64,000 nt of DNA from Eledone cirrhosa (GCA_964016885.1 OZ024742.1:35278001-35342000); one strand, 5' to 3'. Shown: positions 6,573-53,003, numbered from the stretch's first letter. Program-made: numbers and translations. The notes: a model not told the origin generated them from the sequence alone.

Positions 6573-6638
6573 TATTTCATTATATATATTTCGGGGATAT
6601 CATATTAACAATATGCTATGCCTTCATCAGACAAAATA
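6573..6638 (-). ncRNA. Type I hammerhead ribozyme (mirror copy of 6798-6863)
   Basis: Exact reverse complement within the palindrome. Confidence 0.75.
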
Positions 6639-6797
6639 CAATATAAACAGTTTTATAGACAAATAGGTTCGACATACCGTTATAACACCGACTTCATTTG
6701 AAGAGGTTTACTCTGACAGCCAGAGTAAACCTCTTCAAATGAAGTCGGTGTTATAACGGTATGTCGAACCTATTTGTCTATAAAACTGTTTATATTG

Positions 6798-6863
6798 TAT
6801 TTTGTCTGATGAAGGCATAGCATATTGTTAATATGATATCCCCGAAATATATATAATGAAATA
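6798..6863 (+). ncRNA. Type I hammerhead ribozyme (Penelope-type, palindromic helix III)
   Basis: UAUUUUGU-CUGAUGA-helix II (CAUAUU/AAUAUG core)-GAAA-UAUAUA-UA^-AUGAAAUA. Helix I has 8 bp including 2 G-U pairs. Confidence 0.8.
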
Positions 6864-7119
6864 AATATGGTTTTATAAATATAGTTTTCCATTTATTTAA
6901 TATTGTAAATATACTCCAAATATTTGTCGAGTGCTTTTATACCAGTTATAAATATTTACTAGTTGTAACCCAACAATTTTAAATATAACTTTCCATATAT
7001 ATATATATATAGGCTTCTGCCTGCTACAGCTTTGTTAATAAAGGGCTCTTTAACATCTACACCAAATTTTGCATTTTCCTTATTCTATATATATATATAT
7101 ATGTATGTATATGTGTATA

Positions 7120-7670
7120 TGGTGGCTGCCAACTCGTTTTCGAGTACGGCCACTACTTTATATCCATGTAGGAGAACCCCTACCGATGCGCTGAACGAGT
7201 GTGACTTTTTAGTCCAGCCAGCGACTTGAAAACTCTCGTACAAACACTACACTTGTGACAATTACTGACACATAGTGCTGGGCCCATGGCACCATGTGAT
7301 GACAAGTGCAGAGAGATCTCCAGATATAATGCAATGCCTGTGCCGTGAAGCTTTTATAGTGAGCAAAGGCACTGCACAAAGCCAGTCCCACTCTCTTAAC
7401 CAAGATGATATTTACCAAAAAGAAGTACAATTCAACATCATTGGATACCATCAGGATTGCAGGTGTTATATCAGAGTTTTCCTTCTAGAATTCTGTCTTG
7501 ACAAAGGCTAAGAGGTCATCTTTCCCGGTGATTTTGGATGGCCATTGACTCTTAAGAGCTCCTTTGCCCTTTGACAGGTTTTGTTTTTAGTCCTGCAGGA
7601 TGTCCAAAGTCACCCTCCTCACCAAGAAACCTTGGTGGGGTTGCCAGTTTAGTCGCCAACGACCCGACCA
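7120..7670 (-). mobile_element. RTE/BovB-like LINE remnant with C-terminal C2H2 finger (3' part duplicated at 9301-9626)
   Basis: Minus strand reads HKCSVCTRVFKSLAGLKSHTRSAHR*, then a short 3'UTR ending at an (AT)/(ATAC) repeat. Confidence 0.65.
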
Positions 7671-7909
7671 TGTATGTATATATATACATATATACATACA
7701 TATATATAGAGTTAAAGAGTCCTTTATTAACAAAGCTGTGCTACATATTTCAATGACAATCACGGCTATGTGATTGTTCAATCATGTAACCAGTCATGTG
7801 ATGTCATCAGGCAGCATCTTTTCCAATCTAAAGACAAGAGAATGAACAGAAATTATGTTTTCATAGCCAAAGTCTGTTCCCTTAGTTTAGATTGGATTCT
7901 ACTAGATAC

Positions 7910-8247
7910 TATCATCATCATCATTTTACGTCCGCTTTTCCCTGCTTGCAAGGGTGGGACGGGAACTGATTCTGGCTTGATTTCTACAGCTGGATGCCCT
8001 TCCTAACACCAACCTCATTTACAGTGAGTGCTGGGTGCTTTTTTTCTGTGGCGCCTACCCAACCACTTTACAGTGTGGGCTGAGTGCTTTTTTTTCCGTG
8101 GCACCTCCACGACCACTTTACAGTGGAATAATAAGGACCCCAGTCCCTATCATCTCATTTCTACAGCTGAGTAAACTGGAGCAATGTGAAATAAAGTGTC
8201 TTGCTCAAGGAAACAAGACACTTTATTTCACATTGCTCCAGTTTACT
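7910..8247 (-). mobile_element. SINE family B, partial
   Basis: Same core (GAGCAAGACACTTTATTTCACATTGCTCCAG) and RTE-type tail with (GAT)n. Confidence 0.75.
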
Positions 8248-9244: not shown

Positions 9245-9289
<45 letters not shown>

Positions 9290-9664
9290 ATATATATATA
9301 TGGTGGTTGCCAACTCGTTTTCGAGTACGGCCACTACTTTATATCCATGTAGGAGAACCCCTACCGATGTACTGAACGAGTGTGACTCTTTAGTCCAGCC
9401 AGTGACTTGAAATCTCTCGTACAAACACTACACTTGTGACAATTATTGACACATAGTGCTGGGCCCATGGTACCATGTGACGACAAGTGCAGAGAGATCT
9501 CCAGATATAAAGCAATGCCTGTGCCGTGAAGCTTTTATAGTGGGCACTGCACAAAGCCAGTCCCACTCTCTTTACCAAGATGATATTTACCAAAAAGAAG
9601 AACAAGTCAACATCATTGGATACCATGCAAGCAGGGAGAAGCGGACGTAAAATGATGATGATGA

Positions 9665-9709
<45 letters not shown>

Positions 9710-10035
9710 TGTATATAGTTATATATATATATATATATATGCGTGTGTATATATATGTATATATATATATATATAATATGTATGTAGTGCTTGTGGGGGG
9801 GGGGGCGTATATATGTATGTACACAGACATGTGGGCATCCAGCTGTAGAAATCAAGCCAGAATCAGTTCCCGTCCCACCCTTGCAAGCAGGGAAAAGCGG
9901 ATGTAAAATGATGAAGAAGAAGTACACAGACAAAAAACGTATGTATACATATATGTACACTAACACACACACACACACACACACACGTATGCATATATGT
10001 ATACTAACACACACACACGTGTGTGTATATATATA

Positions 10036-10198
10036 TAACGCACCAGAATACTCAATACTTAGGGTAGTAGAGTGGGTAATAGGAAAATGTTCAAGACCCC
10101 GACGGCAGAGCTCAAGCCGTTTCGATGGCTATTTCTGGACTGAAATAGTCGTCGAAACGGCTTGAGCTCTGCCGTCGGGGTCTTGAAAATTTTCCTAT
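10036..10198 (-). mobile_element. Penelope-like terminal fragment (family B) with palindrome 10079-10198 centred on hammerhead helix II
   Basis: Contains GAAA-CGGC-UUGAGCUCU-GCCG-UC-GGGGUC (hammerhead 3' half) on both arms. Flanked by (TA)n. Homologues at 45881-46005 and 47575-47775. Confidence 0.7.
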
Positions 10199-10591
10199 AT
10201 ATATATATATCAATGTATCATTCTGTCCACTTCAAGATGAATTATGAGAACCTACATTGACCCTGGAAGAATTCCAACTGCAAACAGCGTACCACTGCTC
10301 TCACAAAAGGACCGCAGTGACTACTTAACACTTCAATGATTTGCATAATTTTGCATACTAATGAAGATACATGGTGATTAGGGACAACAGGTTAAAGAGT
10401 TAATCTAATACACCATATATATTTACATGAGAGATTAATGGTAAGAACAGGATTTGGATATTGTTGTTGTTAATGTTATCCAATGCTTTTGAGGAGGGTG
10501 TGAAGCTGCTACTGCCACTGCTAACATCACCAACAACAACATTGCTATTTCTACTGCCACCACTACCATTGCTATTAGTATTACATTACTA

Positions 10592-12400: not shown

Positions 12401-12523
12401 CTGGAAAGTCTTACACGTGTTTCAGTGCATTATGTAATCGGCCTATGAGACCTACATTAGTACCTAATCCATTATTTCCCATTGCTCAATAGTACTTAAT
12501 GTGTTTCTTCAGAGAAAACCCAG
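12401..12523 (-). ncRNA. Hammerhead-like ribozyme with extended helix II
   Basis: Minus strand: CUGG-GUUU-UCU-CUGAAGA-[about 80 nt, CAUUA...UAAUG]-GAAA-CACGUG-UA^-AGA-CUUU-CCAG. The base of helix II is imperfect. Confidence 0.6.
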
Positions 12524-12563
12524 GGAAAAAATGTGTTTGTGTGTGTATGTACATATGTGTGTG

Positions 12564-13719: not shown

Positions 13720-16700
13720 ACCACCACTACTACTACTACTACACTACAACCATTCACTACCACCAGCCTCACTACTGCACACCACCACCACCCTCACTAC
13801 TGCACACCACCACTACTACCACCACCACCACCCTCACTACAGCACACCACCACTACTACCACTACCACCACCCTCACTACGGCACACCACCACTACTACC
13901 ACTACCCTCACTACTGCACACCACCACTACTACCACTACCACCAGCCTCACTACTGCACACCACCACTACTACCACCACCACCACCCTCACTACTGCACA
14001 CCACCACTACTACCACCACCACCACCCTCACTACTGCACACCACCACTACTACCACCACCACCACCCTCACTACAGCACACCACCACTACTACCACTACC
14101 ACCACCCTCACTACGGCACACCACCACTACTACCACTACCACCAGCCTCACTACTGCACACCACCACTACTACCACCACCACCACCCTCACTACGGCACA
14201 CCACAACTACTACCACTACCACCAGCCTCACTACTGCACACCACCACTACTACCACTACCACCAGCCTCACTACGGCACACCACAACTACTACCACTACC
14301 ACCAGCCTCACTACGGCACACCACAACTACTACCACCACCACCACCCTCACTACGGCACACCACAACTACTACCACTACCACCAGCCTCACTACTGCACA
14401 CCACCACCACCCTCACTACTGCACACCACAACTACTACCACTACCACCAGCCTCACTACTGCACACCACCACCACCCTCACTACTGCACACCACCACTAC
14501 TACCACTACCACCAGCCTCACTACGGCACACCACAACTACTACCACTACCACCACCCTCACTACTGCACACCACCACTACTACCACTACCACCACCCTCA
14601 CTACTGCACACCACCACTACTACCACTACCACCACCCTCACTACTGCACACCACCACTACTACCACTACCACCACCCTCACTACAGCACACCACCACTAC
14701 TACCACTACCACCACCCTCACTACGGCACACCACCACTACTACCACTACCACCACCCTCACTACTGCACACCACCACTACTACCACTACCACCAGCCTCA
14801 CTACTGCACACCACCACTACTACCACCACCACCACCCTCACTACGGCACACCACAACTACTACCACTACCACCAGCCTCACTACTGCACACCACCACCAC
14901 CCTCACTACTGCACACCACCACTACTACCACCACCACCACCCTCACTACGGCACACCACAACTACTACCACTACCACCACCCTCACTACTGCACACCACA
15001 ACTACTACCACTACCACCACCCTCACTACTGCACACCACCACTACTACCACTACCACCACCCTCACTACTGCACACCACCACTACTACCACCACTACTAC
15101 CACCACCACCACCCTCACTACGGCACACCACCACTACTACCACTACCACCACCCTCACTACTGCACACCACCACTACTACCACCACCACCACCCTCACTA
15201 CAGCACACCACCACTACTACCACTACCACCAGCCTCACTACTGCACACCACCACTACTACCACCACCACAACTACTACCACTACCACCAGCCTCACTACT
15301 GCACACCACCACTACTACCACCACCACCACCCTCACTACAGCACACCACCACTACTACCACTACCACCACCCTCACTACTGCACACCACCACTACTACCA
15401 CCACCACCACCCTCACTACGGCACACCACCACTACTACCACTACCACCACCCTCACTACTGCACACCACCACTACTACCACTACCACCACCCTCACTACT
15501 GCACACCACCACTACTACCACTACCACCACCCTCACTACGGCACACCACCACTACTAACACTACCACCACCCTCACTACTGCACACCACCACTACTACCA
15601 CTACCACCACCCTCACTACTGCACACCACCACTACTACCACTACCACCACCCTCACTACTGCACACCACCACTACTACCACTACCACCACCCTCACTACT
15701 GCACACCACCACTACTACCACTACCACCACCCTCACTACTGCACACCACCACTACTACCACTACCACCACCCTCACTACTGCACACCACCACTACTACCA
15801 CTACCACCACCCTCACTACTGCACACCACCACTACTACCACTACCACCACCCTCACTACTGCACACCACCACTACTACCACTACCACCACCCTCACTACG
15901 GCACACCACCACTACTACCACTACCACCACCCTCACTACTGCACACCACCACCACTACCACCCTCACTACTGCACACCACCACCACTACCACCCTCACTA
16001 CTGCACACCACCACCACCACCACCCTCACTACTGCACACCACCACCACTACCACCCTCACTACTGCACACCACCACCACTACCACCCTCACTACTGCACA
16101 CCACCACCACTACCACCCTCACTACTGCACACCACCACCACTACCACCCTCACTACTGCACACCACCACCACTACCACCCTCACTACTGCACACCACCAC
16201 CACTACCACCCTCACTACTGCACACCACCACCACTACCACCCTCACTACTGCACACCACCACCACTACCACCCTCACTACTGCACACCACCACCACTACC
16301 ACCCTCACTACTGCACACCACCACCACCACCACCCTCACTACTGCACACCACCACCACTACCACCCTCACTACTGCACACCACCACCACTACCACCCTCA
16401 CTACTGCACACCACCACCACTACCACCCTCACTACTGCACACCACCACCACTACCACCCTCACTACTGCACACCACCACCACTACCACCCTCACTACTGC
16501 ACACCACCACCACCACCACCCTCACTACTGCACACCACCACCACTACCACCCTCACTACTGCACACCACCACCACTACCACCCTCACTACTGCACACCAC
16601 CACCACCACCACCCTCACTACTGCACACCACCACCACTACCACCCTCACTACTGCACACCACCACCACTACCACCCTCACTACTGCACACCACCACCACT

Positions 16701-16810
16701 ACCACCCTCACTACTGCACACCACCACCACTACCACCACCACCACCTTCACTACTGCACACCACTACCACCACCACCACCCTCACTACTGCACACCACCA
16801 CCACTACCAC
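13720..16810. repeat. 3.1-kb minisatellite, 40-bp unit changing to a 31-bp unit (core CCTCACTACTGCACACCACCAC)
   Basis: Directly visible tandem array. The 1071-aa ORF is a by-product of it. Confidence 0.95.
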
Positions 16811-16912
16811 AACCATCTGAAGGAATCCTTCCTGGATAATTTGGATAATGATGATAACTAATGATTCTCATCATCTCCTGACACACACGTGTGTGTATAT
16901 ATATGTGTGTGT

Positions 16913-21222: not shown

Positions 21223-21275
21223 GTAAGTATACATATATAATGTATGTATATATATATAATGTATGTATATGCAAA

Positions 21276-21310
<35 letters not shown>

Positions 21311-21313
<3 letters not shown>

Positions 21314-23190
21314 ATAGCGCAACTAATCAGAGAGAGAATTGACCTAGATGAAATGCAGTTCGGGTTTGTGTCAGGCAAAAGTACCACAGGCGCTCTTTTC
21401 ATAGTACGACAACTACAGGAGAAGTACCTAGCTAAAGGTAAACCCCTCTACTTAGCTTTTGTCGACTTGGAGAAGGCCTTCGACAGAGTCCCCCGCTCCA
21501 TTATCTGGTGGGCTCTTAGAAAACTAGGCGTTCACGAATGGCTTGTGAGGGCTATACAAGCCATGTATAAAGAAACAGTCAGCAAGGTTAGAATTAACAA
21601 CGAATATAGTGAAGAGTTTAGCGTAAAAGTTGGCGTCCATCAGGGCTCTGTTCTCAGCCCCCTACTATTTATTATTGCCCTTCAGGCTATAACAGAGGAG
21701 TTCAAGACAGGCTGCCCATGGGAACTCCTATACGCAGACGACCTGACACTCATAGCGGAATCAATGGCCGAGCTAGAGAAGAAATTCCAAACATGGAAGC
21801 ACGGCCTAGAGTCAAAAGGACTTAAAATTAACCTGGCTAAGACCAAAGTTCTAGTTTGTAGGAAAGAAAACAAGGCGGCGGTCCCTTCTGGGAAATGGTC
21901 GTGCTCGGTGTGTAGGAAAGGCGTAGGTAGAAACTCCATTTTATGTCCTAAATGCAAAGTATGGGTGCATAAAAGATGTTGTGGGATCACAGGTAAGCTA
22001 ACTAAGAACATAGATTTTACATGTGGCCGGTGTTCTGGTGCAATAAGTAGCAGCAAGTGCCCACAAAATACTAGCTCTTTCAATTGCGCAGAGGGTTCTA
22101 TAGAAATAGTGGACAGCTTCCGCTACCTGGGCGATAAAATCAGCAGTGGGGGAGGGTGCTCTGAAAGTACTGTAGCTAGAGTCAGAACTGGTTGGAAAAA
22201 GTTCAGAGAGCTTATACCACTATTAGCTGCTAAAGGGTTCTCCCTAAAAATGAAAGGCAGGTTGTACGATGCCTGCATACGAACAGCAATGTTGCATGGC
22301 AGTGAGACCTGGGCATTGTGTGCAGAGGATATACGCAGATTAGAGAGGAACGAAGCTTGCATGCTCCGCTGGATGTGTAACAGTAATATACGTGAACGGC
22401 AAAGCAGAAACGAACTAAGGAAAAAATTAGAGATAAGAAGGATCAGATGTTGTTTACTCGAGAGAAGGCTACGTTGGTATGGACACGTGATGCGCATGAA
22501 AGTCGATAGCTGTATAACAAAGTGCAGGGCAATAAAGATAGACGGTAGTCACGGAATAGGCAGACCTAGAAAAACCTGGGACGAGCTGATAAACTCCGAC
22601 ATCACACACTTACACCTCTCCAAGACAATGTCACTGGACCGAGACCTTTGGCGGTACTCAGTAATAGAGAAGACCCGCCTTACCTAAATACAAAGTAAAA
22701 CCTACTACAGTCAGTAGGCATCTCTAACAAAATACACCCCCCGTCCCACCACCCCCACCCCATCCACACCGCCCCTTTCAATGTAAAGTTATGTTGGTGC
22801 CACAACATCCAGGCCGAAACAAATGAGAACGTGTAGGTGTCACGACAAAAAAACACACAGTCCACGCTGTAATGTGGCCGTGTAGGCAATACGGTAAAAA
22901 CCTCCCAGCCCCACACTGTAAATGTGGTTGGTGTTAGGAAGGGCATCCAGCCGTAGAAAACCCGCCAGACAGTCCACGCTGTAATGTGGCCGTGTAGGCA
23001 ACACGGTAAAAACCTCCCAGCCTCACACTGTAAATGTGGTTGGTGTTAGGAAGGGCATCCAGCTGTAGAAAACCCGCCAGACAGTCCTATGCGAGCAAGA
23101 CAATCACTCTTGCCTCAAGTGGGACTACCCCCGTCCAAACCCATGCAAGCGTGGAACACGGACGTTAAACGTTGATGATGATGATGATGA
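21311..23190 (+). mobile_element. 5'-truncated RTE-clade LINE (RT with internal PHD finger); ORF open to 22687
   Basis: RT motifs QFGF, LAFVDLEKAFDRV, GVHQGSVLSP, LLYADD, FRYLG. RTE C-terminus [12 protein letters not shown]...GRPRKTW...DRDLWR. (GAT)n tail. 5' end abuts (TA)n. Confidence 0.93.
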
Positions 23191-23572: not shown

Positions 23573-26500
23573 AATTTACAGACACATACTCAGAGAAAGC
23601 CCATTCATTCGGGCCATACTTGCTTCTCTCACCCATCTTTCAACAAAATGCTGGGAAGAGAGCACTTCCCTCTCTACCCTGATTTTCCTTTTCAAATGAA
23701 ATTTGAAAAAGTTAATCAGGGCATCACCGAAGAGGTAAGTGCTCGTCTTCAGCCCTTTCAAACGTGTCCACCATACTATCTCTTTCGCCATGGCCACCAG
23801 AGAGATAAAAACTGCCTACCCTTCCCGGCTAAAGGAAGGGGGCGGGGCAATCCTCACGATGGACTCAGCTGATAGCTGGATCCGTCCTACACGTGACAGC
23901 AGGTGTTCGACATAAATCCACAAGTCAGCAATGCTCGGACACTGGACGAGTGCGTGCAGGACGGTTTCGTCGCCCTGCGCGCATCTCGGACATACCCGGC
24001 TGACGGCACCTCCATGCCTGTAGAGTTTATCCCGAACTGGCAAGGCTCCTCGGTAGCACTGCCAGGCCAGGGATTTCTGGAAGTTGTCCATAGGCCCCGG
24101 CCCGAAAGTCCTTCCGAAGAGATTGGCTAGTTGATTTTCGTCGACGCCTAGAGTTTCTCCAAGTACATCGTCGCTCTTCCCCTCCACTAATCCCCTATAG
24201 AACGCCAAGGTGGAGTTTCCACCGATCACATTGCCCGAATGGTCGAGGGCTGTGAGCGCCTGAAGACATTCCAGTCTCCAAGCGCTCCCTCTCGGTTTTC
24301 GCTTGACCCAGGACTGCAGCTCCGTCAAGGAGACGAGCTGGGGAAAAACGTGTCTAGCAAACGGCGACCACACCTGATCACCGTCGAGGAAGAGGTGGAG
24401 ATGTCGTAGCCTGAGCGCGTGTCTGCGCATCATCAGCCACGGCATGCCCAGCCCTCCACGTAGCGGGTGTTGACAGCAGATGGACCGCCTGACCATCGGA
24501 GCGCGTCCCTTGCACAAGAAGCGAAACAGCAAACGCTCCAGCGCAGTCAGGCGGGGCTTAGGACAAGGTACGACGGTCAGGCGGTAGTAGATGACGGATG
24601 CGATGTACGCATTCGCCACCTCCGCTCGACCTTTCAGGGATAGCTTCCTCTCGGCCCATTTCTGGGTGAGAGAAGCCACCCTGCTGGTCACCTCGTCCCA
24701 GTTTTTGTCCGTCTGAAGGTCTGGACCGAACCAGACCCCTAGCAATTTAACCGGTCCGTCCGTCCAGCGCCCGACGACGCTGTTGGACGGCATGGACCTG
24801 CCTCTCCAGGTGCCGAGCTGCAGGCCCACTGACTTTTCCTGGTTGATCATTGCTCCTGTCACCGCTTCGTATTCTCTTAGTGTAGTGCTGATCGCCTCGA
24901 TGTGTTTGGCGTTCGACACCACTACGGTGACATCGTCGGCATATGCTGACACGGATCTTCCGCATCCTAGTTCGCGCGGGACCCCCCTCAACGTCTCCAG
25001 TTTGTGCAGTAATGGCTCGAGAGTCAATACGTACAATAGGGACGAGAGGGGACATCCTTGGCGGACCGAGCGCATGATGTTGAACGGTTCCGAAAGGTGA
25101 CCGTTCACTCTCACTACAGAGCAGATGTCGCTGTGCATGGCAGCGATCCAGCCTCTGAAGACGGGCCCAAAGCCAGCCGCCCTCAGGACTGCCGCTAAGT
25201 AACGATGGTCGACCCTATCGAAGGCTTTCGATTGATCTAAATTGATCAAAGACCCACCCTTGCCAGGTTCCCTAGCTACCCTCTCTACGATGTATCGCAT
25301 GAGGTGGAGGTTGTCGTGGATGGATCTGTCGGGAATGGCGCATGTCTGTGCCTCTCCCACCAGACCACCAACGACAAGCGCCAACCTCTTTGCTAGCACC
25401 TTGGCCAAAATCTTGAACTCTGTGTTTAGCAGAGTTATGGGCCTAAAATTATCTATGTTATCCCCCTTGTTCGGATCCTTTCTCAGCAGCGCCACCGCTC
25501 CTCGTCTCACAGAGCTGGGAATTCTCCCGTTCTGTTGCCAGTTGTAGTAGACGTCCGCCAAGAGGCCTCCGAACAAGTTTGGCATTTGTACGTAAAGTTC
25601 ATAGGGCAGACCATCCAAACCAGGCGATTTACCCCTTGTGCTGCCAGTCATTGCATCCCGTACTTCAGCGGTTGTTATCGGCTTTTCGCAACACTCCGCC
25701 TCAGTGGCCGAAAGCCGTGGCAGTCCGTCGAGGTAGACACTAAAGTCCATCCCTCGATCCGGCCCGCCACTGCCCCCGAACAGTTGAGCGAAGTGTCGCT
25801 GAAAAGTTTCACACATTTGCCCGGAATCGAGTAGCATGCGCCTGTCGTGGTCCACCAAAGACCGGATCGTGGCTTTATTGCCACAACGCGCCTCCGCCAC
25901 TCAGGCCCATTGAACGGCTTTCGTCCCCTCGTGTCTGAGAGCACGCACCCTAGCTCTGACAACGCAGCCTTCGTGCTTTGCATTGAAGAATTGGTCAAGG
26001 GCCAATTTCGCCGCAAGTACGTCGGTCGCGATGCCTTTGCTAAGCGCCTCATCTAATTTTCTAACTAGTTCTCCCTCTGCTCTATTTTTCTCTATTGCTA
26101 AAGTCTTACTAAACCTAATGGACTCTATTCTAATTGCTCTTTTCAGAGCAAACCACCACTTGTTGTTGACGATGGCCCCCGTCAACGCCCGCTTAACTAG
26201 TTCGCTAATCCGGTCTCTGTAGGCCTTGCGCGCTGGTAAGGACGCGTTTAGCTTCCAGTAGCCGGGTCCTCGCCTATGAAGCCTATCTAAGTCAAGCACA
26301 CAGATCACGAATTTGTGGTCCGTGTAGCTGACTATCTTGAATTGTGGACAACCTATGCTAGACCTATCTATTTCCCTACAAAATACTCTATCTAGATATG
26401 ATCTGGATGACCCTATGCGATTTGTCCAAGTCCACATTGGTACATTCGGGAAATCCATTCGGTACCTGTCAGACAGTTCAAAACGTCTGAGCAGGTTGGT

Positions 26501-26996
26501 GAGACTCTTGCACCCTCCTTCCCTATCCACTAATCCCACACAATCCCAGCGTGCATCTAAGATCCCGTTCCAGTCGCCCACTAACACTAAAGAGTGGGAC
26601 GTTCCAAGAAAGGTCTCCAGACGCCGGAAGAAATCAGGCCGCCCTGCTCCTGTCGGGGCATAGACGGCCACTAACCTGAAAGCTTGCCCGTCTCCGCTGG
26701 TCACGTCCAGCACCACCAACTTATCTTCTGGGTCCAGGAAGATGGCCCGTATGGCAAGATCCAAACCTCTCCGAAAAAGCACAGCAACTCCTCCCCCCGA
26801 TCCCGGACGGCTGGGAGATGCGTACACATCGTAGCCGCCGAAGATCGGTGCGAAAGCCTGTGCTTCGGAGATTCTGGTCTCGCTGATGGCCACTACATCT
26901 ATGTTTAGTGACCTGAGGTCGTTGAGCAGGTGGCCCTGCTTCCATGACGACCCCAAGCCACGCGCATTTATGCTGCCTATTCTGAGTGAGGTCATG
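23573..26996 (-). pseudogene. Tx1 ORF2 (APE-RT-zinc motif) with two in-frame nonsense codons
   Basis: One frame from MTSLRIGSINARG to the C-terminus, interrupted by TGA (about 25901, plausibly from CGA) and TAG (about 23816; GAG in the related copy at about 56376). Confidence 0.85.
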
Positions 26997-27512
26997 TTGA
27001 AAAGGAGTGGAAAAGATGGGAAAGACCACTTACCTTCTCGTAGAGGAAGGACGGTTTTTCCATCCTTTTCACTGCTTGTGGCCTCCTCAGGAAGGATGTC
27101 CTTATAAATCCTCCTGGAGAGTGCTTGTCGGAAGTCTCCGATGTCTTTGGGGAATTTTTGTTTTAGTATCATGTACGTTTTCTGTGTGATGCGAGTGATT
27201 TGTATGTGTGGAGGTGGTGTGAATTTTGGGGTTGTTGTGTAGTCTTTTTCTGTAATGCTGGTGTTGTGTTGGATGTAGTGTAATAATTGCTTGTTCAAAT
27301 TTAATGCTGTGTAGTGTGTATCGTTTTGGTTGTTTTGTTTTGTTTGCGTTTGTTGTGGGTTTGTTTCTGTTTCGCATTTTGGTGACTTTTGTGGTGTAGG
27401 TGATGGTGGTGTTGGAGTTAATGATGGTGATGGTGTTGGTGTTTGGGTTGATGGGGTTGGTGATGCTGGTGTGGATGGTGGCATATCTGTCCTAACTTTT
27501 TTGTTTCTTAGT

Positions 27513-29028
27513 TTATTTGTTTCCCTCTGTATTTTGTTTTTGGAGGGGGAAGGAAGAGAATTTTTTTCTTTTTTGGTTTCTTTTTGTTTTTCCGGATATC
27601 GTTTCCCACTCCTCGTCGTCACAATCTGTCTCCAGTTGTGATAGGCCGGGGAGTGGAAAATCCTCCACAGCCGTTAGTTTTGGTTGTGGTGTGGTGGATG
27701 GTGTAGGCACTGGTGCTAGTTCTGAAGCGTTGGGTGGTGGTGGTGTTGGTGTTGGTTTTGCTGGTGGTGGTAGTGGTGTTGGTTTTGCTACTGTTGCTGG
27801 GGTTGTTGCTGTTATAGTTGCTTCTGTTGTTGCTGCTACAGTTGTTGCTGCCATCTCTGCTACTGGTGGTGTTGATGGTTGTGTCACTGGGGTGGGTAGG
27901 AGAGGTGGCCTCAACCTTTTAGCCTGAGGGCAGAAAGCCCTTAGGTGGGTTCCTTCACCACAAACGACACACCTAGGTCTTCTGCCCTCGACAATTACCG
28001 TGAGGTGGCTGCCGTCAGTGAGGTCTATTACCTCTGGGATCTCCTCAATGCTTTTTTGGTCCGCTTGGATTAGGAGCTCCATCCCAGATCCGGACCAGTT
28101 TTCCTGCTTTTCTTTTGCTATTGCTATTATTTTCGTGTTGGCTTCGATGCCGGCGAGGACAGCCGCTATTAGCCAGGGAATTTCGATGGCCGGTGGAACG
28201 TGGGTCACCCTGATCTTTACGAGTCTCTGGCCACAATAGCTTGGGACGAGTGTGAAGTCGTCACTTTTTAATGGGGCCATGGAGTGTTCTCTAGCCTCCT
28301 CTGGTGTTTCAAAGAACACATCCACGGTTCCATACTTTTTCCCACGTCTGATGTGGGTTTTTCTTGCCCACACATGTCCCAAAGCTTTTTGGATTTGGGA
28401 CTCGGATGCCCGTTCCACTCGGCACGATTTTACATTTATTGTTCTATATGACACGGTGCATAGGCGCCGATGCTCCATTTTATTAGGTGGGGGGGGGGGT
28501 GAGGCTGACCCTGTACCCATCTTTCTTTACCATTTGTTTGGCATTTTCTAAATCCTCTTGAGTTACCGTGAATGCTGCGAACTGTTTTGCTACTATGGCG
28601 AAACTGAGGGTCGGTTTTATAATGTCATTGTTGTTGTTGCTATCGTTATTTGTGTTAATATTAATTTTAGTTTCAGTTGTGGTGGTGATGACGTCAGTCG
28701 TCTTTGGTGCGGAAGAGTCCGTTTTGCTTGATTTCATTTCGACATCACGAGTTAATTTATTTTTTCTTCTTTTGTTTCTGTTGTCGCGGTGGTGGTGGGG
28801 GTGGTGGTTGTCGCGGTGGTGGTGGTGGTGGTGGAGGCTTTAACACCTGCAGTCATTGGTAATGGCGGGAAATGAATGTCTGCCTGAGACAAATTTAAAA
28901 TATTGCTACTGCTTATATTTTTTTTTGTGTTGGCAAACGTAGTAACATTTACAATGGTGGTGTCAGTGTGAGGTGTTATTTTGTGAGGAAGGCTTTCAGC
29001 TGCTTCGTGCAGAGGGGAATTAGCCATT
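27513..29028 (-). pseudogene. Tx1 ORF1 (nucleic-acid chaperone, zinc knuckle), frameshifted
   Basis: Segments MANSPLHE..., MKSSKTD... and ...PPPPNKMEHRR...CVVCGEGTHLRAFC join across frameshifts, one in the G-run at about 28488-28499. Confidence 0.7.
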
Positions 29029-40249: not shown

Positions 40250-40489
40250 TATAAACAATGAGTTATATGGTTTGTTGATTATTCAACAAAGTTAATTTCA
40301 TAACAGATTAGAAGCACTCTACAATATTTATCTGGAGTATCATTAATATTAATAAATGGAAAATATCTTTATAAAACCATATTTATTTTATTATACGTAT
40401 TTCAAGGGTACTTAAATATTAGTACCCTTGAAATACGTATAATAAAATAAATATGGTTTTATAAAGATATTTTCCATTTATTAATATTA
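40250..40489 (-). mobile_element. Penelope-like terminal fragment (family A) with palindrome 40344-40489 centred on hammerhead helix II
   Basis: AAGGGTACT-taaatatt-AGTACCCTT-GAAA-TACGTA-TA-ATAAAATA. The flank is homologous to 6864-6940 and 53004-53145. Confidence 0.75.
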
Positions 40490-41118
40490 TTAATATATAT
40501 ATATAAATATGGCTGACTCATGTGTGCTAAATGGCCCAAATCTCTGGAAAAGAACCAAAGTGATAATCCCAATTTCAAAAAATGAAACAAGAAAGATTAC
40601 TCTGGAGGAATCTCCTTGTTAAGCCACCCCGGTAAAGTTTATGCGAGGTGTCTGGCAAAGAGATGTAGGAATACTGTTGACTCCAAGCTAGCTGACAATG
40701 TGAGTTTCACCCCAGACATAGCCCAGCCAACCAAATATGTGGCAGGTCTTTGAGAAATTGTGGAAGTATTATCAAGAAATGTATACTTCTTTCATGGACT
40801 TCAAAAAGGCATACAACCATTATGTTAAGGGTACACAGTGTACCCTTAACATAATTCTCAGGGAGAGCGTGGAAGATGGACGTTAAACAATGATGATGAT
40901 GATTCTGTATGATAAGGCTGGTCCTTTGAATTACAAATACAGTTTGACTGGCTTCCAAATAATTTCCATCTACCCAATTTTACTCACAAGGCTTGGGTTG
41001 ATTTGGGACTATGGTACATGACTTGCGCAAGATGCCACACAGTGGGATGGAATCTGGGACCTTATAATTGTAAAGTAAACTTCTTAACCAGCCAACAATG
41101 TCAATGCATATTGAATAA

Positions 41119-45839: not shown

Positions 45840-46289
45840 GTGTGTGTTACTGGAGTTGTATATTAAATCATATACAAAATCGAAACGGCTTGAGCTCTGT
45901 CGTCGGGGTCATACTTTTTCCTATTTCCCACTCTACTACCCTAAGTATTGAGTACTCTGGTGCGTTATGGTCCATCTGTTTCTTTACTACAATTCCTTTG
46001 TTATGTATATATATATATATGTGTGTGTAAATGGAATGTCTAATAACGTAGTTTCCTTATAAAACAAATTTCCTATATTTAGAACTTTGGAGTTTTATGA
46101 ACTTTTATGCCCGACGGCTAAACTAAAATTGTTTTGATAATAAATGAAGTCTATCCGCGTGCGAGGTTACACGTTAACTTAAAGGTGGGGGAATACGTTC
46201 GGGGAGTAGAGGGGAGGTTTGGAATGAAACAAAAGTTAAAAACAAAATAATCAAAATCTAAGATATTACAAGAACGAAATAGTACTACA

Positions 46290-47574: not shown

Positions 47575-47579
<5 letters not shown>

Positions 47580-47772
47580 AACCAGTAAGACCCCGACAGC
47601 TGAGCTCAAGCCGTTTCGACGGCTAATTCTGGACGAGTCCAGAATTAGCCGTCGAAACGGCTTGAGCTCAGCTGTCGGGGTCTTACTGGTTCCTATTACC
47701 CACTCTACTACCTCAAGTATTGAGTACTTTGGTGCGTTATGGTCCACCTGGTTCCTTACCACATTTCCTTCG

Positions 47773-47775
<3 letters not shown>
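47575..47775 (+). mobile_element. Penelope-like terminal fragment (family B) with perfect palindrome 47575-47696
   Basis: 60-bp arms around a 2-nt centre. Contains GAAA-CGGC-TTGAGCTCA-GCTG-TC-GGGGTC. (TA)n on both sides. Confidence 0.75.
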
Positions 47776-47802
<27 letters not shown>

Positions 47803-47806
<4 letters not shown>

Positions 47807-49739
47807 AATCAAAAAGAACAGAAAGATGCAGTAAAAGAGATTTATTCGGTTCTAACGTACGTTTCAATAGACATCAATTTGCCTAGATCTCGCTGCATCT
47901 ATAATATTATATAGTTAGTAGAGCATTCGACATCCAATGTACAATTGATTCCATATCATCAGAGATTATGTTTACCGTACCAGAATGTTCAGGTTTTTAT
48001 AGGAATTCAAGTGAAGTTGAAGTAGAGAAGAAGGAGTATGTGACAAAGATGAGAGAGATAGGGGGTTTTTCATAGTTGTTGAGGTAAAACAGAGGGGAGG
48101 ATAAAATACGATAATGAAGTCTAGATATGGACTAGTCCAACTGTGTGTGTGCTAGGGAGATGGTAGACGTTGATAGGTTTATGATCTATGATACATGGAG
48201 GCAGGGGAGATTAGGCCGAGTGACTTGTAAAGTATGTAGGAGGAGATGTTGAATAGGGGAGATGTGGTCAATAAAAGGCATAGCAATAATCCATGGGGAC
48301 AGATAGAGGAGGTAGAAGGAAGATAGAGGAAAGCAGAAGTCGCAGGATCAAATCAAGCCAGGTTTGTATTTCGAGAACGTAGCCTTGAGTCTGTGATTGC
48401 AATATAGAGTCCTTTCCGTTCTGTTGTTGAGAAGAGTATAATTGGATTTTAGTATGTAAAATAGCTCCATATTGCATAATCGGCAGTAAGGCTGGCCTGC
48501 ACGATATGCGGAAGCACTAGAAAGTTTTGTCCATTTCAAAGTGTATTGCAGGTTACTTTCGCGCAACTGCCAAATTGTATTGGCTAAGGTAGTTACGGAA
48601 CGGTATTTGATGTTCTTCATCGAACTACGGTGTTGGTACCAACGAGATTTAAAAGTGGTAGAGGTACAGCCGATATAATGCCATCTCCGGTTATTCGATT
48701 CAACGGTGCATTGATACACCATATTGGATTCCATGCATTTGTTATTCAGAGGGCAACGATCAGGTAGGTTGCAGTTGCACTTATCAGCTCTTGTAGTATT
48801 ATTATCTTGTACAGGTTGCGTTAGGTTTATATGTGTGTCTGCTGCAGGAGGGTTTACATTCAGTGGTTGAGAGTTAGAGGAAGTGTTAATGTAGTTTGGG
48901 GTGCTTCGTGTGGATGTGCTGACTAATCGTTTGGAGTTAAGTTTTTTAATAATTAGATCGAGATTGGGTGCTGTAGAATATGAAAGCTTAATGGACCTTA
49001 GATTTAGTATTTTAGCGTATCGATGTGCAGGAGGAAAATGTGTTTTGATTAAATTGAAGAAAAGTGAAGAAATTTTAGGAGATGTTGAGGCATTGTATAT
49101 ACTTTTGAGTACAACCTGACTGAAACAAATTTCTTGGATGTAACATTTAATCTAGAGACGGGGGAAATCCGCCCATTCCATAAATCTAATGAAAATATTA
49201 TGTATGTTGACCATAAATCTAATCATCCACCCTCGGTTATACGGTCTATCCCTCGGGCCATCTCCCTTAGAATATCACGCCTGTCATCTACCCCCCAGGT
49301 CTTTAGTGAGCACGCTTACTACTATAACAACGCGCTTAAGGCGGCTGGATACCAAGACAAAATAGAGTACATAGATCCAGCACACCAATATAGAAATAAG
49401 GGCTCACAACGCACTAGCATAAACAATAATATAGGTACGATACACAACATACACTTTCCGCATAGGCATAGTCGAAATAGAAGCACACAACCCAACCTAG
49501 CTAGAAAGCGGAATCGTAGCTACCTTTGGTACAACCCAATATACAATGCCTCAACATCTCCTAAAATTTCTTCACTTTTCTTCAATTTAATCAAAACACA
49601 TTTTCCTGCTGCACATCGATACGCTAAAATACTAAATCTAAGGTCCATTAAGCTTTCATATTCTACAGCACCCAATCTCGATCTAATTATTAAAAAAACT
49701 TAACTCCAAACGATTAGTCAGCACATCCACACGAAGCAC
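47803..49739. mobile_element. Penelope-like element with 5' inversion (GIY-YIG part on -, RT thumb part on +)
   Basis: Minus: CNCNLPDRCPLNNKC..SNMVYQCTV...YIGCT...FKSRWYQH...CRLCNMELFYI...LLNNRTE...CNH. Plus: FLDVTFNL...YVDHKSNHPPSVIRSIP...RISRLSS. 48901-49100 is the inverted copy of 49540-49739. Confidence 0.92.
47847..47977 (-). ncRNA. Type I hammerhead ribozyme with extended helix II, downstream of the Penelope GIY-YIG ORF
   Basis: Minus strand: CGGU...UCU-CUGAUGA-UA-UGGAAUCAAUU-[about 60 nt]-AAUUGAUGUCUA-UU-GAAA-CGUACG-UU^-AGA-ACCG. Confidence 0.75.
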
Positions 49740-50378
49740 ATTTGACTAAACTTTATTTGTTCCAATCTAATATATGTTTAACGCAGCCTAAAGCCTTCTT
49801 ATATTATATCTAACTTTGAAGGTTGACTTTGCCTTTCATCCTTACGGGGTCGATAAAATAAAGTACCAGTAATGCATTGGGTAATTGCTGGCCTTGTGCC
49901 TAAAGTAGAAACAATTATATCTAACTTTGAGTCAAAATAGATAGAAGATATCTGAATTAATTTCCAATACCATCGTCACATCTACACTATCAGCTGATTT
50001 GCATTTTTTGCACCTTTTAGTATGGCGGATATTTAAATATATTTACATTACCAATAATATTTAATACGACCCTAAAGTAGTATATGCAGGAAGTGCTGGA
50101 CTCTGAAAAAGATTTCTTCTAGTTGTTTATAAATTTGCACCTTTTCCAGTAACCCCTAATATTTTAATATTATTATAAGACTTTAAATAATATGTTTGCC
50201 ATCCTAAAATGGAGAAATTTCAATTTTTAAAAATTAAAATTTTTTTTTAACTAGTTAAGTTTTTCCAAATATCTAAAATTAAAGTTAATTTAAGTACTTT
50301 TTGTAATAAAAAAAACTTAATTTCTCTTGTTTATTAATGTCATATTAAAAATGTTAACTGTAGATAAATAACCTTGAT

Positions 50379-52274
50379 ATGATGTCTACTGCAAAGAGGC
50401 TGAAGTTAGATACCAGCAGTAAGGTTAGACAGTGGTGTGATGATTATGTTAGATATGGATTTCAAAAAGCTGACACTAAAAAAGATACACCAGATCAGCC
50501 CATGTGTTTGCTATGTTCAAAAGTTCTATCAAATAGCTGTTTAAATCCTGCAAAACTTAAAAGACACCTTGATACTAATCACACCAATGATAAAAGCAAG
50601 TCACTGGAATACTTTACTTCGCTGAAAAACAACATCAAAAAATCACAAGCTAATATGTATGACTTGTTTTGTAAAAAGTCAGATAGAAATAAAGCTTTAA
50701 CAAGAACATCTTTTGAAATTTCACATTTGATTGGTAAAAACAAGAAACCATTTACATTAGGAGAACAGTTAATTCTGCCAAGTATAAAAATGTCTACAGA
50801 GAATCTTTTTGAAAGCTGCAGTATTAAGGACAAAGAAAAATTAAGCCAGTTACCATTGTCAGCAAATACCGTAAAAAGAAGGATAATTGATATTTCTTCT
50901 GATATAGAAAATCAGATACTAACTGCACTAAAGAAAAGCACATGTTTTGGTCTGCAAGTGGACGAAACTACGGATATTAATAACAAGGCTCAATTAATTT
51001 GCTATGTACGGTTTGTAGACCTTGATAAAAAAGAATTAGTAGAAGAGTATTTGTTTTGTCTGGTATTAGACATCACAACTAAAGGTCAAGATATATTCAA
51101 TAAAATTGAAGAGTATTTTTTAAAAAATGGTGTATCTTGGAGCAAGTTGACTTCAATAACAACAGATGGAGCAGCTGCAATAACTGGTAAAAATTCTGGT
51201 TTAATTGCAAAAATTAAAGAACAGACCCCAAATTGTATTTCAAATTATTGTATGATTCATTGAGAGGTTTTGTGTTCAAAAAAATTCAAAGACAGAGATG
51301 CTCAAATATTAAATGACCAGCTGAAAGACATTGTCAAAATTATCAATTTGATCCATGCAAGAGCAACAAATTCTAGAATGTTTGAATCTATTTGTGAATC
51401 TTCTAGAAGTAATTATAATAGATTGTTATTGAACAATGATGTGCGTTGGCTGTCTTTTGGGGATGCTATGAAGAGAGTTTTTGAACTGAGAGAAGAAATA
51501 ATAGTTTTTCTAAAAAAAACAGAATGATGAAAGAGCAAATGTATTAGAAACCATTGAATGGAATGTGCAACTCGCTTATTTAGTAGACATTTTTGGTGAA
51601 CTGAACAAACTAAATAAGTGTCTTCAGGGTAACAATGCAGATATTTTTACTTCAATCAATTTTATTACATATTTTCAATCAAAATTAAACATCTTTATAA
51701 AAAGAATTGAATCGGACAATTACTCATTACTTTCAAACCTTGAAATAGAGCTTAAAAAGAGAGAAGATTTTGACTCCAGCAATCTAAAGAAGATTATTCT
51801 TTCTCATTTAAATGGGCTTTCCACAAGTTTTTCAGATTATTTTGACTTGATGGAAAAAGATATTGTTAGCGGAAATTTATGGATAAAAACCCGTTCACCG
51901 AGATCGAGCAGTTAGTGTCAGAAAATGACGCTGGAAAGTGTAAAAATTTACTACCTGCACAATGCTTACATCAGTTGATGGATTTGAATTCAAACGAAGA
52001 CCTGAAAGTGATATTCGAAAGCAGAAAGAAAGAACTATGGATCGACTTATTCTTGATTGGGGAGTTTAATGAAATCAGCCAACTTGCATTGAAATATTTG
52101 ACTTTATTCCCATCTAGCTACTTGTGCGAAGGGTTTTCGCAGTTGGTAGAAATCTGCACAAAGAAGATGAATAAACTGTCAGCAATTGACGAGTGTATGA
52201 GACTGGCATTAACTAGTGTTGAACCTCGATTTTCTAGATTCACTGATGAGGCGCAGCAGCAGAAAAGCCACTAG
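50379..52274 (+). pseudogene. hAT Buster/Charlie-type transposase (ZBED5/SCAND3-like), disrupted
   Basis: BED finger (PMCLLC...KLKRHL), DETTD, TDGA, CMIH, VRW and YLCE-GFS motifs. Stop at 51261 and frameshifts at A-runs near 51520 and 51885. Confidence 0.9.
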
Positions 52275-52411
52275 TTAATTGTATTCGATTACATACACAC
52301 GCATGAAACACTAAAATAAATAAATACTTTATTTTTTTGTTTGAAAAGTTTTGTATTGTATAGGTTCCGTGAAGAATTCAAAATATTTAGAGGGTTTCTC
52401 GGTTTTAGAAA

Positions 52412-52434
52412 GGTTGGCGACCACTGCCCTAAGG
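52412..52434 (+). mobile_element. Right TIR of the hAT element and candidate 8-bp target site
   Basis: GGTTGGCGACCACTG (reverse complement CAGTGGTCGCCAACC), then CCCTAAGG, which fits the Buster NNNTANNN target. No left TIR found. Confidence 0.7.
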
Positions 52435-52914
52435 TACTTGAATCTTCAATCCCTGTAGTGGCAGTAAGTTATTTCACCAACACTCAACATATATATATAC
52501 CACAAATAATATCATAAACTTAGAGAAGAAGACGTAAAGCAACAAAGAAATATAGAAGGGGAGTTGAAAGGGAAGATGTGGAGACAAAAGAAGGGAAAAT
52601 AAAGAAAAGAAGAAAAGGAAAGGATAAAGAAAAGGAGAGGACAAAAAAGCCGTTGTATTCAGACCCTAAACAGAAAATTCAAAAATTATTTTTATTATTT
52701 ATCAATGAATGCCGCTTGCATTGGAATACGCTTTAATTAATTATTTCCCTTCTTTTCTCTCCACATCTTCCCTTTCAACTCCCCTTCTATATTTCTTTGT
52801 TGTTTTACGTCTTCTTCTCTAAGTTTATCATATTATTTGTGATATATATATATGTTGAGTATTGGGGAATAACTTACTGCCACTACAGGGATTGAAGATT
52901 CAAGTACCTTAGGG
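52427..52914. repeat. About 157-bp inverted repeat upstream of a hammerhead (Penelope-like terminus, family A)
   Basis: 52427-52584 pairs with 52758-52914, with a few mismatches. Confidence 0.85.
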
Positions 52915-52940
52915 TTATGTCGTATATCCAATCTCTTATA

Positions 52941-53003
52941 TATTTTATCTGATGAAAACGTACTGAAACACCATTGTACCTTTGAAATATGTATAATAAA
53001 ATA
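52941..53003 (+). ncRNA. Type I hammerhead ribozyme (family A)
   Basis: UAUUUUAU-CUGAUGA-AAACGUAC...GUACCUUU-GAAA-UAUGUA-UA^-AUAAAAUA. Helix I is a perfect 8 bp. Confidence 0.8.

What the first reader, a model, noticed from the sequence alone, without database searches (positions are those of the whole stretch)
6573..53003. Several hammerhead families with covarying palindromic helix III
Seen: after the GAAA core, independent copies carry different but self-complementary hexamers followed by UH. These are UAUAUA (6848), UACGUA (40434), UAUGUA (52988, wobble), CACGUG (12414-12419, minus) and CGUACG (47856-47861, minus). Family B has CGGC-UUGAGCUC(U/A)-GC(C/U)G-UC. Helix I is kept through U-G/U-A exchanges (UAUUUUGU/AUGAAAUA versus UAUUUUAU/AUAAAAUA). 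One copy lies directly 3' of a GIY-YIG ORF. Inference: several Penelope-like lineages with a dimer-dependent self-cleavage module are abundant here (at least 8 complete or partial motifs in 64 kb). I do not know of these cephalopod families having been characterised.
Basis: partly seen in the sequence, partly recalled or inferred. Interest (0 to 1): 0.75.

Follow-up and report, generated by a model that had tools for sequence, protein, structure and literature searches.

The report
Penelope-type hammerhead motifs, palindromic third stem
The window holds remains of several Penelope-like jumping genes, each carrying a hammerhead self-cutting RNA motif whose third stem is a six-base self-complementary loop that likely lets two copies pair to cut; this kind is already published, and most copies here are broken halves or mirror-image inserts that are predicted to be inert.

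Summary
They exceed chance: 10 core matches against a mean of 2.2 in shuffles, and 4 perfectly palindromic hexamers against 0.04, with 0 of 200 shuffles reaching 4.

Five motifs have both core halves: 6806+, its mirror at 6630-, 52949+, 47962- and 12512-. Seven are 3' halves only: 40434 on both arms and the five family B sites.

Copies elsewhere in the same genome show real covariation in helices I and II. They carry at least 14 different self-complementary hexamers.

Six endonuclease ORF lineages each have their own hammerhead motif downstream. One has a 798-aa ORF with RT-like and GIY-YIG-like motifs. All show the Penelope insertion signs: 5' truncation, head-to-head inverted copies and (TA)n targets. 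Complete versions of the two half-motif families exist elsewhere in the genome.

This matches the published minimal, palindromic-helix-III hammerheads of Penelope-like elements (PMC4209133). I therefore class these as new members of a known kind, in a cephalopod-like genome. Cutting and dimer dependence are untested, and no RNA data were available.

The scan has noted the same class before, including in two other windows of this genome.

The parts
6529..6907 (.). Head-to-head (mirror-image) pair of family A ends. The arms are about 183 bp, and (TA)n lies on the left flank.
   Evidence: Read from the sequence. The long hairpin was picked up as false miRNA matches.
6798..6863 (+). Complete family A hammerhead motif: helix I 5' strand 6798-6805, CTGATGA 6806-6812, helix II 6813-6843, GAAA 6844-6847, TATATA 6848-6853, TA 6854-6855, helix I 3' strand 6856-6863. 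The first helix II pair is A.C in this copy.
   Evidence: Related copies (L036, L083, L101) have A-U at that pair.
6573..6638 (-). Mirror copy of the same complete motif on the minus strand (CTGATGA starts at 6630).
10040..10200 (.). Family B head-to-head insert: a long-tailed copy on the minus strand and a short inverted arm on the plus strand. The 3' half motifs are at 10101-10123 (-) and 10154-10176 (+). There is no CTGANGA.
12401..12526 (-). Old, decayed family D motif: CTGAAGA 12506-12512, an 86-nt helix II region, GAAA 12420-12423, CACGTG 12414-12419, TA 12412-12413. The core-proximal part of helix II has three mismatches in this copy.
   Evidence: Other genome copies are 71-86% identical, and 8 of the 15 aligned copies (window copy included) keep a complete core.
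40340..40490 (.). Fold-back insert of the TACGTA-type family A end, with the junction at hammerhead helix II. The 3' half motifs are at 40422-40449 (+) and 40384-40411 (-). There is no CTGANGA. The natural 10-nt loop 2 is kept at the centre.
   Evidence: The complete form exists elsewhere. This fold-back form is found at only 4 places in the genome.
45881..45990 (+). Family B copy truncated at its 5' end just before GAAA. The half motif is at 45882-45904, and the tail runs into a TA-rich repeat.
47579..47775 (.). Family B head-to-head insert: a short inverted arm, then a long-tailed plus-strand copy ending at (TA)n (47776-47800). The half motifs are at 47595-47617 (-) and 47654-47676 (+).
47800..49100 (-). 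5'-truncated copy of the autonomous Penelope-like element (family C). The ORF part, 48351-49100, matches P0001 residues 549-798 at 98%. The 3' region is 47800-48347, with a complete hammerhead motif at about 47845-47975: CTGATGA 47956-47962, a 90-nt helix II region, GAAA 47862-47865, CGTACG 47856-47861, TT 47854-47855.
49100..49739 (+). Inverted internal fragment of the same element (P0001 residues 399-601, 97%), joined head to head to the copy on its left.
52427..53062 (+). Family A1 element. An internal inverted repeat (52427-52598 and 52744-52914) flanks a 145-nt centre. A complete hammerhead motif follows at 52941-53003: CTGATGA 52949-52955, GAAA 52984-52987, TATGTA 52988-52993, TA 52994-52995, predicted cut after 52995.

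Best explanation
These are hammerhead motifs of the minimal, palindromic-helix-III type carried at the 3' ends of several Penelope-like retroelement lineages, and they likely cut only when two copies pair.

Shown:
- Each motif has the CUGANGA and GAAA cores and a UH site.
- Helices I and II covary.
- A six-base self-complementary stretch lies between A15.1 and U16.1, and it differs among lineages.
- Each lineage's motif lies downstream of its own ORF, which carries RT-like and GIY-YIG-like motifs.
- Insertions are 5'-truncated, often joined head to head, and often sit in (TA)n.

Inferred:
- Two RNAs would pair their palindromes into an 8-bp intermolecular helix III, giving the active double hammerhead proposed for such elements and for newt and axolotl repeats.
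- The head-to-head inserts would arise at integration, when both DNA ends prime reverse transcription or the cDNA folds back.
- The seven half motifs, and the copies buried in perfect palindromes, are predicted to be inert.
For: Chance is excluded in the window.

Across 108 loci of the same genome plus the window, 153 core matches fall into 57 families. Sixteen families have a Watson-Crick palindromic hexamer and 4 more are palindromic with G.U; about 1 would be expected at 1/64. Of the 15 families that pass an independent helix I/II filter, 11 are palindromic.

Families chosen only for a palindromic hexamer pair at helix I positions 1-4 in 80-90% of cases, against 35-65% in the other families. 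That is 84 of 120 helix I cells paired, against a mean of 56 and a maximum of 75 in 2000 partner permutations.

On 15 diverse family A motifs, 88.4% of cells pair against 74.3% when shuffled (0 of 500 shuffles as high). Fourteen of 19 pairs have changes on both sides. Slid registers give 28-56%. That set was chosen for palindromic hexamers, so only helices I and II count as a test there.

ORF link. L092 holds a 798-aa ORF that reads YRDD, a Cys-rich linker and VYQ...YIG, with the motif 385 nt after its stop. An inverted truncated copy and a partial direct repeat lie upstream of the ORF. Five further endonuclease lineages each have their own motif downstream.

Complete forms of the half motifs exist:
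- Family B: a recurrent 79-nt form, seen in 8 of the 100 listed places (142 pattern hits against 0 control). In L101, helix I reads ACCCC/GGGGU.
- TACGTA type: 193 exact matches against 0 control.

Published descriptions match, from passages I read:
- Palindromic 15.2-16.2 and loop 3, and dimer action (PMC4209133).
- Inverted 5'-truncated copies and a (TA)n bias (PMC8557442).
- A Penelope-like protein that extends both DNA strands (PMC11167929).
Against: - No Rfam hammerhead model matched, even at E up to 10 on stretches of 91-331 bases.
- The 10.1-11.1 pair is G-C in only 2 of 15 family A motifs. The fourth helix II pair is never a standard pair.
- The A/U-only palindromes would give weak duplexes.
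- Predicted homodimers form the intermolecular helix III for the L017 and full family B motifs, but not for the two window family A motifs.
- No expression or cleavage data could be had.
- In the one Penelope-like element tested in vitro, hammerhead mutants did not change insertion, and no reads ended at the cut site (PMC11167929, passages).
- Pfam support for RT and GIY-YIG is weak or sub-threshold.
Confidence: 0.8

Rival explanations
1. The palindrome is mainly an RNA-RNA dimerisation site, a kissing loop that pairs two transcripts for two-template integration. Hammerhead cutting would be secondary or vestigial.
For: Family B has a stable 5-bp helix III, so it does not need a partner to form that helix. 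Yet it keeps a six-base palindrome inside a 9-nt loop. Head-to-head and partial tandem inserts imply that two templates or two priming events were used. Hammerhead mutants did not affect insertion in vitro in another Penelope-like element (PMC11167929, passages).
Against: The catalytic boxes and the UH site are kept across very divergent lineages. Pure dimerisation would not require that. The same palindrome is shared by families with different helix I. No binding data exist.
Confidence: 0.15
2. The palindromic hexamers are not selected. They would reflect shared ancestry plus symmetric CpG decay and a TA-rich composition, and the core matches would be chance.
For: Several differences can arise by CpG deamination on both strands, for example CGTACG to CATATG, or TACGTA to TATGTA and TATATA. 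Single-step variants such as CGTATG occur. The genome is full of (TA)n. Old family D copies lose the palindrome: of the 8 copies (of 15 aligned) that keep a complete core, 4 keep CACGTG.
Against: TGATCA, CAATTG, CCGCGG, CGGCCG, CTCGAG, CGATCG, TTTAAA and TGCGCA cannot be derived from one another by CpG decay. Sixteen of 57 families are palindromic against about 1 expected. Helices I and II covary independently. Shuffled and reversed controls are near zero.
Confidence: 0.03
3. The mirror-image inserts (6529-6907, 40340-40490, 10040-10200, 47579-47775) are DNA transposons of the MITE or foldback kind, with incidental hammerhead-like strings.
For: They have long, perfect terminal inverted repeats and are small. 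Rfam scores them as plant-miRNA-like hairpins.
Against: The arms are unequal: one ends at an internal site, the other runs through a longer tail. Among 29 other family B copies there are more than a dozen different centre junction strings, and 3 copies clearly have no inverted arm at all. The same sequences lie downstream of RT/endonuclease ORFs. The autonomous element shows the same head-to-head form.
Confidence: 0.02

Closest known systems
Minimal and palindromic-helix-III hammerheads in the terminal repeats of metazoan Penelope-like elements (Cervera and de la Pena 2014, PMC4209133; passages read)
   Same: Type I motif with CUGANGA and GAAA cores. A long helix II. Helix III is reduced to a self-complementary stretch at 15.2-16.2 or loop 3. 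Many covarying families occur per genome. The motif lies in the element's terminal repeat. Dimer action is proposed.
   Different: Here the self-complementary stretch is nearly always six bases closed by A15.1-U16.1; that paper describes 2-4-nt loops or none. The 10.1-11.1 pair is mostly A-U or G.U rather than G-C. The fourth helix II pair is a conserved mismatch in family A. The host is a cephalopod-like genome, which is not among those discussed in the passages I read.
Newt and axolotl type I hammerheads (HHR_Amex1) in non-LTR retrozymes (PMC7229834; passages read)
   Same: Helix III is a single base pair capped by a palindromic loop. Activity is weak as a monomer and efficient as a dimer.
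   Different: Those have a tetraloop, conserved loop 1-loop 2 contacts and tandem arrays expressed as circular RNAs. Here there is a hexaloop, and copies are dispersed or head to head. In the first 100 listed places, I counted 1 direct pair against 8 inverted pairs by hand. No expression data were available.
Insertion architecture of endonuclease-positive Penelope-like elements (Craig et al. 2021, PMC8557442; Mob DNA 2024, PMC11167929; passages read)
   Same: 5' truncation, partial tandem repeats, an inverted 5'-truncated copy at the 5' end, a (TA)n target bias, a Cys-rich linker before GIY-YIG, and internal initiation of reverse transcription.
   Different: Clade placement (Neptune, Nematis, Hydra or other) was not determined here. 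Family B shows two 3' ends: the short arm stops at an internal CCTAT next to (TA)n.
Retroviral dimerisation initiation sites
   Same: Works-like comparison only: a six-base self-complementary sequence in a hairpin loop, as in the 9-nt loop of family B helix III.
   Different: There is no evidence here of kissing-loop dimers or of a packaging role. This is not a membership claim.

Membership tests
Hammerhead ribozyme (type I) | Conserved cores CUGANGA and GAAA, with a UH cleavage site in the right order | tested here: met
   Met by 5 motifs (6806+, 6630-, 52949+, 47962-, 12512-). Not met by 7 half motifs (40434 on both arms and the five family B sites).
Hammerhead ribozyme (type I) | Helices I and II base-paired and supported by covariation | tested here: met
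   88.4% of cells paired against 74.3% shuffled (0 of 500 as high), and 12 of the 15 helix I/II pairs have changes on both sides; 84 of 120 helix I cells paired against a permuted maximum of 75.
Hammerhead ribozyme (type I) | Match to a curated Rfam hammerhead covariance model | tested here: not met
   There were no matches at gathering score. No hammerhead family appeared among all matches at E up to 10 on 6560-6890, 52925-53015 and L017 3040-3135. In the whole-window E-value run only the best 150 of 257 matches were shown.
Hammerhead ribozyme (type I) | Site-specific self-cleavage | not testable with these tools
   This needs in vitro transcription or end-specific RNA sequencing.
Penelope-like-element minimal/palindromic hammerhead | Self-complementary 15.2-16.2 or loop 3 | tested here: met
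   Twenty of 57 families are palindromic (16 Watson-Crick). At least 14 different hexamers occur. Length 6 predominates over 2, 4, 8 and 10.
Penelope-like-element minimal/palindromic hammerhead | [quoted passage not shown] | tested here: not met
   In 15 family A motifs the first helix II pair is A-U in 8, G.U in 3, G-C in 2 and unpaired in 2. An extra nucleotide is not needed to draw helix II.
Penelope-like-element minimal/palindromic hammerhead | Location in the terminal repeat or 3' end of an element that encodes RT and GIY-YIG | tested here: met
   One search gives the distance of each motif from the stop codon: family C +385, L032 +512, L058 +496, A1 +1089 to +1276, full family B +1180, L099 +188. 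Searches show a partial direct repeat upstream of the ORF.
Penelope-like-element minimal/palindromic hammerhead | Active as a dimer | not testable with these tools
   Only folding predictions are available, and they are mixed.
Penelope-like element, C-terminal endonuclease type | Reverse transcriptase domain | tested here: inconclusive
   YRDD is read in P0001. The profile's best solved-structure match is a retron RT at E 0.017. RVT_1 matches 1 of 22 aligned relatives. An Atlas cluster at score 0.96 carries RVT_1 in 92% of its members. Pfam finds nothing in P0001 itself.
Penelope-like element, C-terminal endonuclease type | C-terminal GIY-YIG endonuclease after a Cys-rich linker | tested here: inconclusive
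   Pfam GIY-YIG matches the window ORF at E 0.005, below the cut-off. It matches 2 of 22 relatives. Atlas clusters carry GIY-YIG in 26-50% of members. The motif letters are read.
Penelope-like element, C-terminal endonuclease type | 5' truncation, partial tandem repeat and an inverted 5'-truncated copy | tested here: met
   L092; window 47800-49739; paired minus/plus matches 1.5-3 kb apart.
Animal non-LTR retrozymes | Short head-to-tail tandem units, each carrying a hammerhead | tested here: not met
There are no direct repeats in 52300-53150. The window copies are single or head to head.

The most novel reading that the evidence does not exclude
The six-base palindrome is first of all an RNA pairing site. 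It brings two element transcripts together so that both ends of the cut target can be primed. This would produce the head-to-head and partial-tandem inserts. Hammerhead cutting would be a secondary use of the same pairing.
Probability: 0.1. Interest if true: 0.55.

Novelty: new member of a known kind. Interest (0 to 1): 0.25.

Why it matters
This finding adds a cephalopod-like genome to the hosts of Penelope-type hammerheads. That genome holds many thousands of such motifs in many lineages.

The motifs escape the curated Rfam hammerhead models, so standard annotation undercounts them.

The range of palindromes in one genome is a ready-made set of natural compensatory variants for testing the dimer model.

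It does not change what is known about how these motifs work.

Tried and rejected
- Rfam at gathering and at E-value thresholds gave no hammerhead hit. It returned only false miRNA and snoRNA matches to hairpins and microsatellites.
- Sequencing runs: no RNA holder was listed, so expression and cut-site ends could not be examined.
No fold comparison was made.
- Pfam on P0001 and on four relatives gave nothing useful.
- I tested the idea that the hammerhead helix II loop is a general hot spot for the head-to-head junction. It holds for family B: most of the 29 copies have an inverted arm, and the right arm always starts at the same base. It does not hold for the TACGTA subfamily, where 4 places (3 of them within 55 kb on one contig) have the fold-back against 193 complete motifs. 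I dropped it as a general rule.
- A family-specific dimerisation code is weakened, because TATATA is shared by 4 families, TATGTA by 3 and CAATTG by 2.
- My first helix filter (helix I at least 5 of 6, helix II at least 3 of 4) passed only 1 of the 10 window matches. It was too strict for motifs with a mismatch next to the core.
- The first pattern call failed on the gap limit, and I replaced it with a script.
- One literature search was badly framed and returned only cephalopod biology papers.
- The MITE reading was rejected (see rivals).


Full report
**Observation**

The family B string occurs exactly five times.

The window has 10 matches to CTGANGA-N8..120-GAAA-N6-TH. 200 dinucleotide-preserving shuffles give a mean of 2.18 and a maximum of 7. 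Four matches have a Watson-Crick palindromic hexamer, against a mean of 0.04, and 0 of 200 shuffles reach 4. The reversed window gives 3 matches, none palindromic. Two of the four palindromic matches are the two arms of one mirror-image insert.

Of all 222 GAAA-N6-TH strings in the window, 9 are palindromic. Six of those belong to the motifs discussed here.

**What is complete and what is not**

Five motifs have both core halves:
- 6806+ and its mirror at 6630-
- 52949+
- 47962-
- 12512-

Seven are 3' halves only:
- The 40434 site is a fold-back. Both arms start at helix II and lack CTGANGA.
- The five family B sites are two head-to-head inserts (10040-10200 and 47579-47775) and one 5'-truncated copy (45881-45990).

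The window's 6806 copy has A.C at the first helix II pair, where related copies have A-U. The 12512 copy has three mismatches next to the core. It belongs to an old family: other genome copies are 71-86% identical, and 8 of the 15 aligned copies keep a complete core.

**Are they real hammerhead motifs?**

Rfam finds none, even at E up to 10 on short stretches. The case therefore rests on covariation.

I collected 112 loci of the window's own genome around copies of four families. Their flanks held many further motifs by chance. After excluding the four loci that are the window's own place, 108 loci plus the window gave 153 core matches in 57 families. Sixteen families have a Watson-Crick palindromic hexamer and 4 more are palindromic with G.U. 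Of the 15 families that pass an independent helix I/II filter, 11 are palindromic.

I then took families chosen only for the palindrome. They pair at helix I positions 1-4 in 80-90% of cases, against 35-65% in the rest. That is 84 of 120 helix I cells, against a mean of 56 and a maximum of 75 in 2000 partner permutations. About 18 different helix I sequence pairs are involved, for example TTTAT/ATAAA, ACTGC/GCAGT, ACCCG/CGGGA and GCCTT/AAGGC.

On an alignment of 15 diverse family A motifs, 88.4% of cells pair, against 74.3% in shuffles (0 of 500 as high). Fourteen of 19 pairs have changes on both sides, and slid registers give 28-56%. That set was picked for palindromic hexamers, so only helices I and II are a test there.

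The hexamers seen are TATATA, TATGTA, TACGTA, TGCGCA, CAATTG, CTCGAG, TGATCA, CATATG, CGATCG, TTTAAA, CGTACG, TAATTA, CCGCGG, CGGCCG and CACGTG. Length six predominates.

**Link to Penelope-like elements**

The 47962(-) motif lies 386 nt after the stop of a truncated ORF. A copy elsewhere (L092) has a 798-aa open frame that reads YRDD, a Cys-rich linker and a VYQ...YIG stretch. Its motif lies 385 nt after the stop. An inverted truncated copy and a partial direct repeat lie upstream of that ORF. In the window, the minus-strand copy (47800-49100) is joined head to head to an inverted internal fragment (49100-49739).

Database support for the domains is weak:
- Pfam gives only a sub-threshold GIY-YIG match and nothing for the whole ORF.
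- Relatives at 25-35% identity carry PF26215 and PF28514.
- Atlas clusters name these HTH_animal and DUF8422, together with GIY-YIG and, in one cluster, RVT_1.
- A profile of 22 relatives has a retron RT as its best solved match, at E 0.017.

tblastn of this ORF against all fetched loci found five further endonuclease lineages, 29-69% identical. Each has its own motif downstream on the same strand:

| Lineage | Hexamer | Distance after stop |
|---|---|---|
| L032 | CATATG | +512 |
| L058 | CACTTG | +496 |
| L002, L020 (family A1) | TATGTA | +1089 to +1276 |
| L102 | full family B motif | +1180 |
| L099 | CAATTG | +188 |

Families A and B in the window are therefore 3' ends of such elements, not separate kinds of repeat.

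**The half motifs have complete relatives**

For family B, a recurrent 79-nt form begins with CTGAGGA and runs into the family B helix III. It is seen in 8 of the 100 listed places (142 pattern hits against 0 in the reversed control, though many of the 142 are chance or neighbouring cores). In L101, helix I reads ACCCC/GGGGT.

For the TACGTA type, 193 exact matches carry CTGANGA and a natural helix II with the usual mismatch, against 0 control. The window's fold-back form occurs at 4 places: the window itself and three on one contig within 55 kb.

**Abundance**

The TATGTA-type pattern alone has 6,774 exact matches against 0 control. The TACGTA type has 769 against 0.

**How the mirror-image inserts likely arise (inferred)**

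I examined 29 other long-tailed family B copies. Most have an inverted arm abutting them, and 3 clearly have none. The right arm always starts at the same base. The short arm always ends at an internal CCTAT next to (TA)n. The centre carries more than a dozen different small junction strings.

This fits independent joining events at each insertion, as expected if both DNA ends prime reverse transcription. That has been shown in vitro for another Penelope-like protein (PMC11167929, passages). A cDNA fold-back would also fit. The layout itself is published (PMC8557442, passages).

**Function (inferred)**

The published model is that such motifs cut as dimers through an extended helix III (PMC4209133 and PMC7229834, passages).

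Folding predictions here are mixed. Homodimers of the L017 and full family B motifs form the intermolecular helix III. Those of the two window family A motifs do not.

No RNA run was listed for this sequence. Cutting is therefore untested.

**Host**

One host exon in the window (an arginyl-tRNA ligase fragment) is 86% identical to a protein named from Argonauta hians. It was the only match among 19 candidates. This agrees with a cephalopod origin but is thin evidence.

**Literature**

Searches for hammerhead together with Penelope-like, cephalopod, octopus, mollusc and retrozyme terms found no paper that characterises cephalopod hammerhead families. A giant squid genome paper lists 235 Rfam hammerhead_1 loci without analysis (PMC6962438, passage). 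PMC7229834 has no mention of cephalopods. I did not open any supplements.

**Earlier notes of this scan**

Earlier notes describe the same class in other genomes and in two other windows of this genome. One of them concludes that the palindromes are not a family code, which my counts support.

**Verdict**

These are new members of a published kind. Most copies in this window are truncated or buried in hairpins.

Noticed in passing
Alignment A1 columns 19 and 48; window 52959 with 52980, and 6816 with 6840: The fourth pair of helix II is never a standard pair in any of 15 diverse family A motifs, and is mostly C.C. The pairs on both sides of it covary. This suggests a conserved non-canonical element. 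Its role is unknown.
   Followed up: partly
window 10040-10200 and 47579-47775; L021-L050: Family B inserts have two different 3' ends. The short inverted arm stops at an internal CCTAT next to (TA)n. The long arm runs about 100 nt further to another (TA)n junction. This suggests two start sites for reverse transcription on one template. The centre junctions differ among copies.
   Followed up: partly
window 40384-40449: In the fold-back, the natural 10-nt loop 2 is kept at the centre. The usual helix II mismatch is replaced by a perfect complement (AAGGGTAC instead of AAGCGTAC), as expected from copying one arm off the other. This form is rare: 4 places in the genome.
   Followed up: yes
window 47776-47800: One (TA)n tract received two elements tail to tail: family B on the plus strand and the autonomous family C element on the minus strand.
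   Followed up: no
window 13755-16815: A C/A-rich minisatellite with a period of about 40 nt and about 79 copies. It is open in three plus-strand frames for over 1000 codons and has no Pfam match.
   Followed up: partly
window 21260-22687 (+), 23816-27673 (-), 50364-51263 (+), about 2510-2640 (+): Other content of the window: an RT ORF with a PHD finger; a LINE-like element with endonuclease/exonuclease/phosphatase, RVT_1 and zf-RVT domains; an ORF with BED finger and DUF4371, as in hAT-like transposases; and one exon of a host arginyl-tRNA ligase gene.
   Followed up: no
L095, L100 and listing: A further hammerhead-like family has a short helix II (GGTCACA...TGTGGC) and a non-palindromic stretch after GAAA. 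It recurs next to family B insertions and may be a different design.
   Followed up: no
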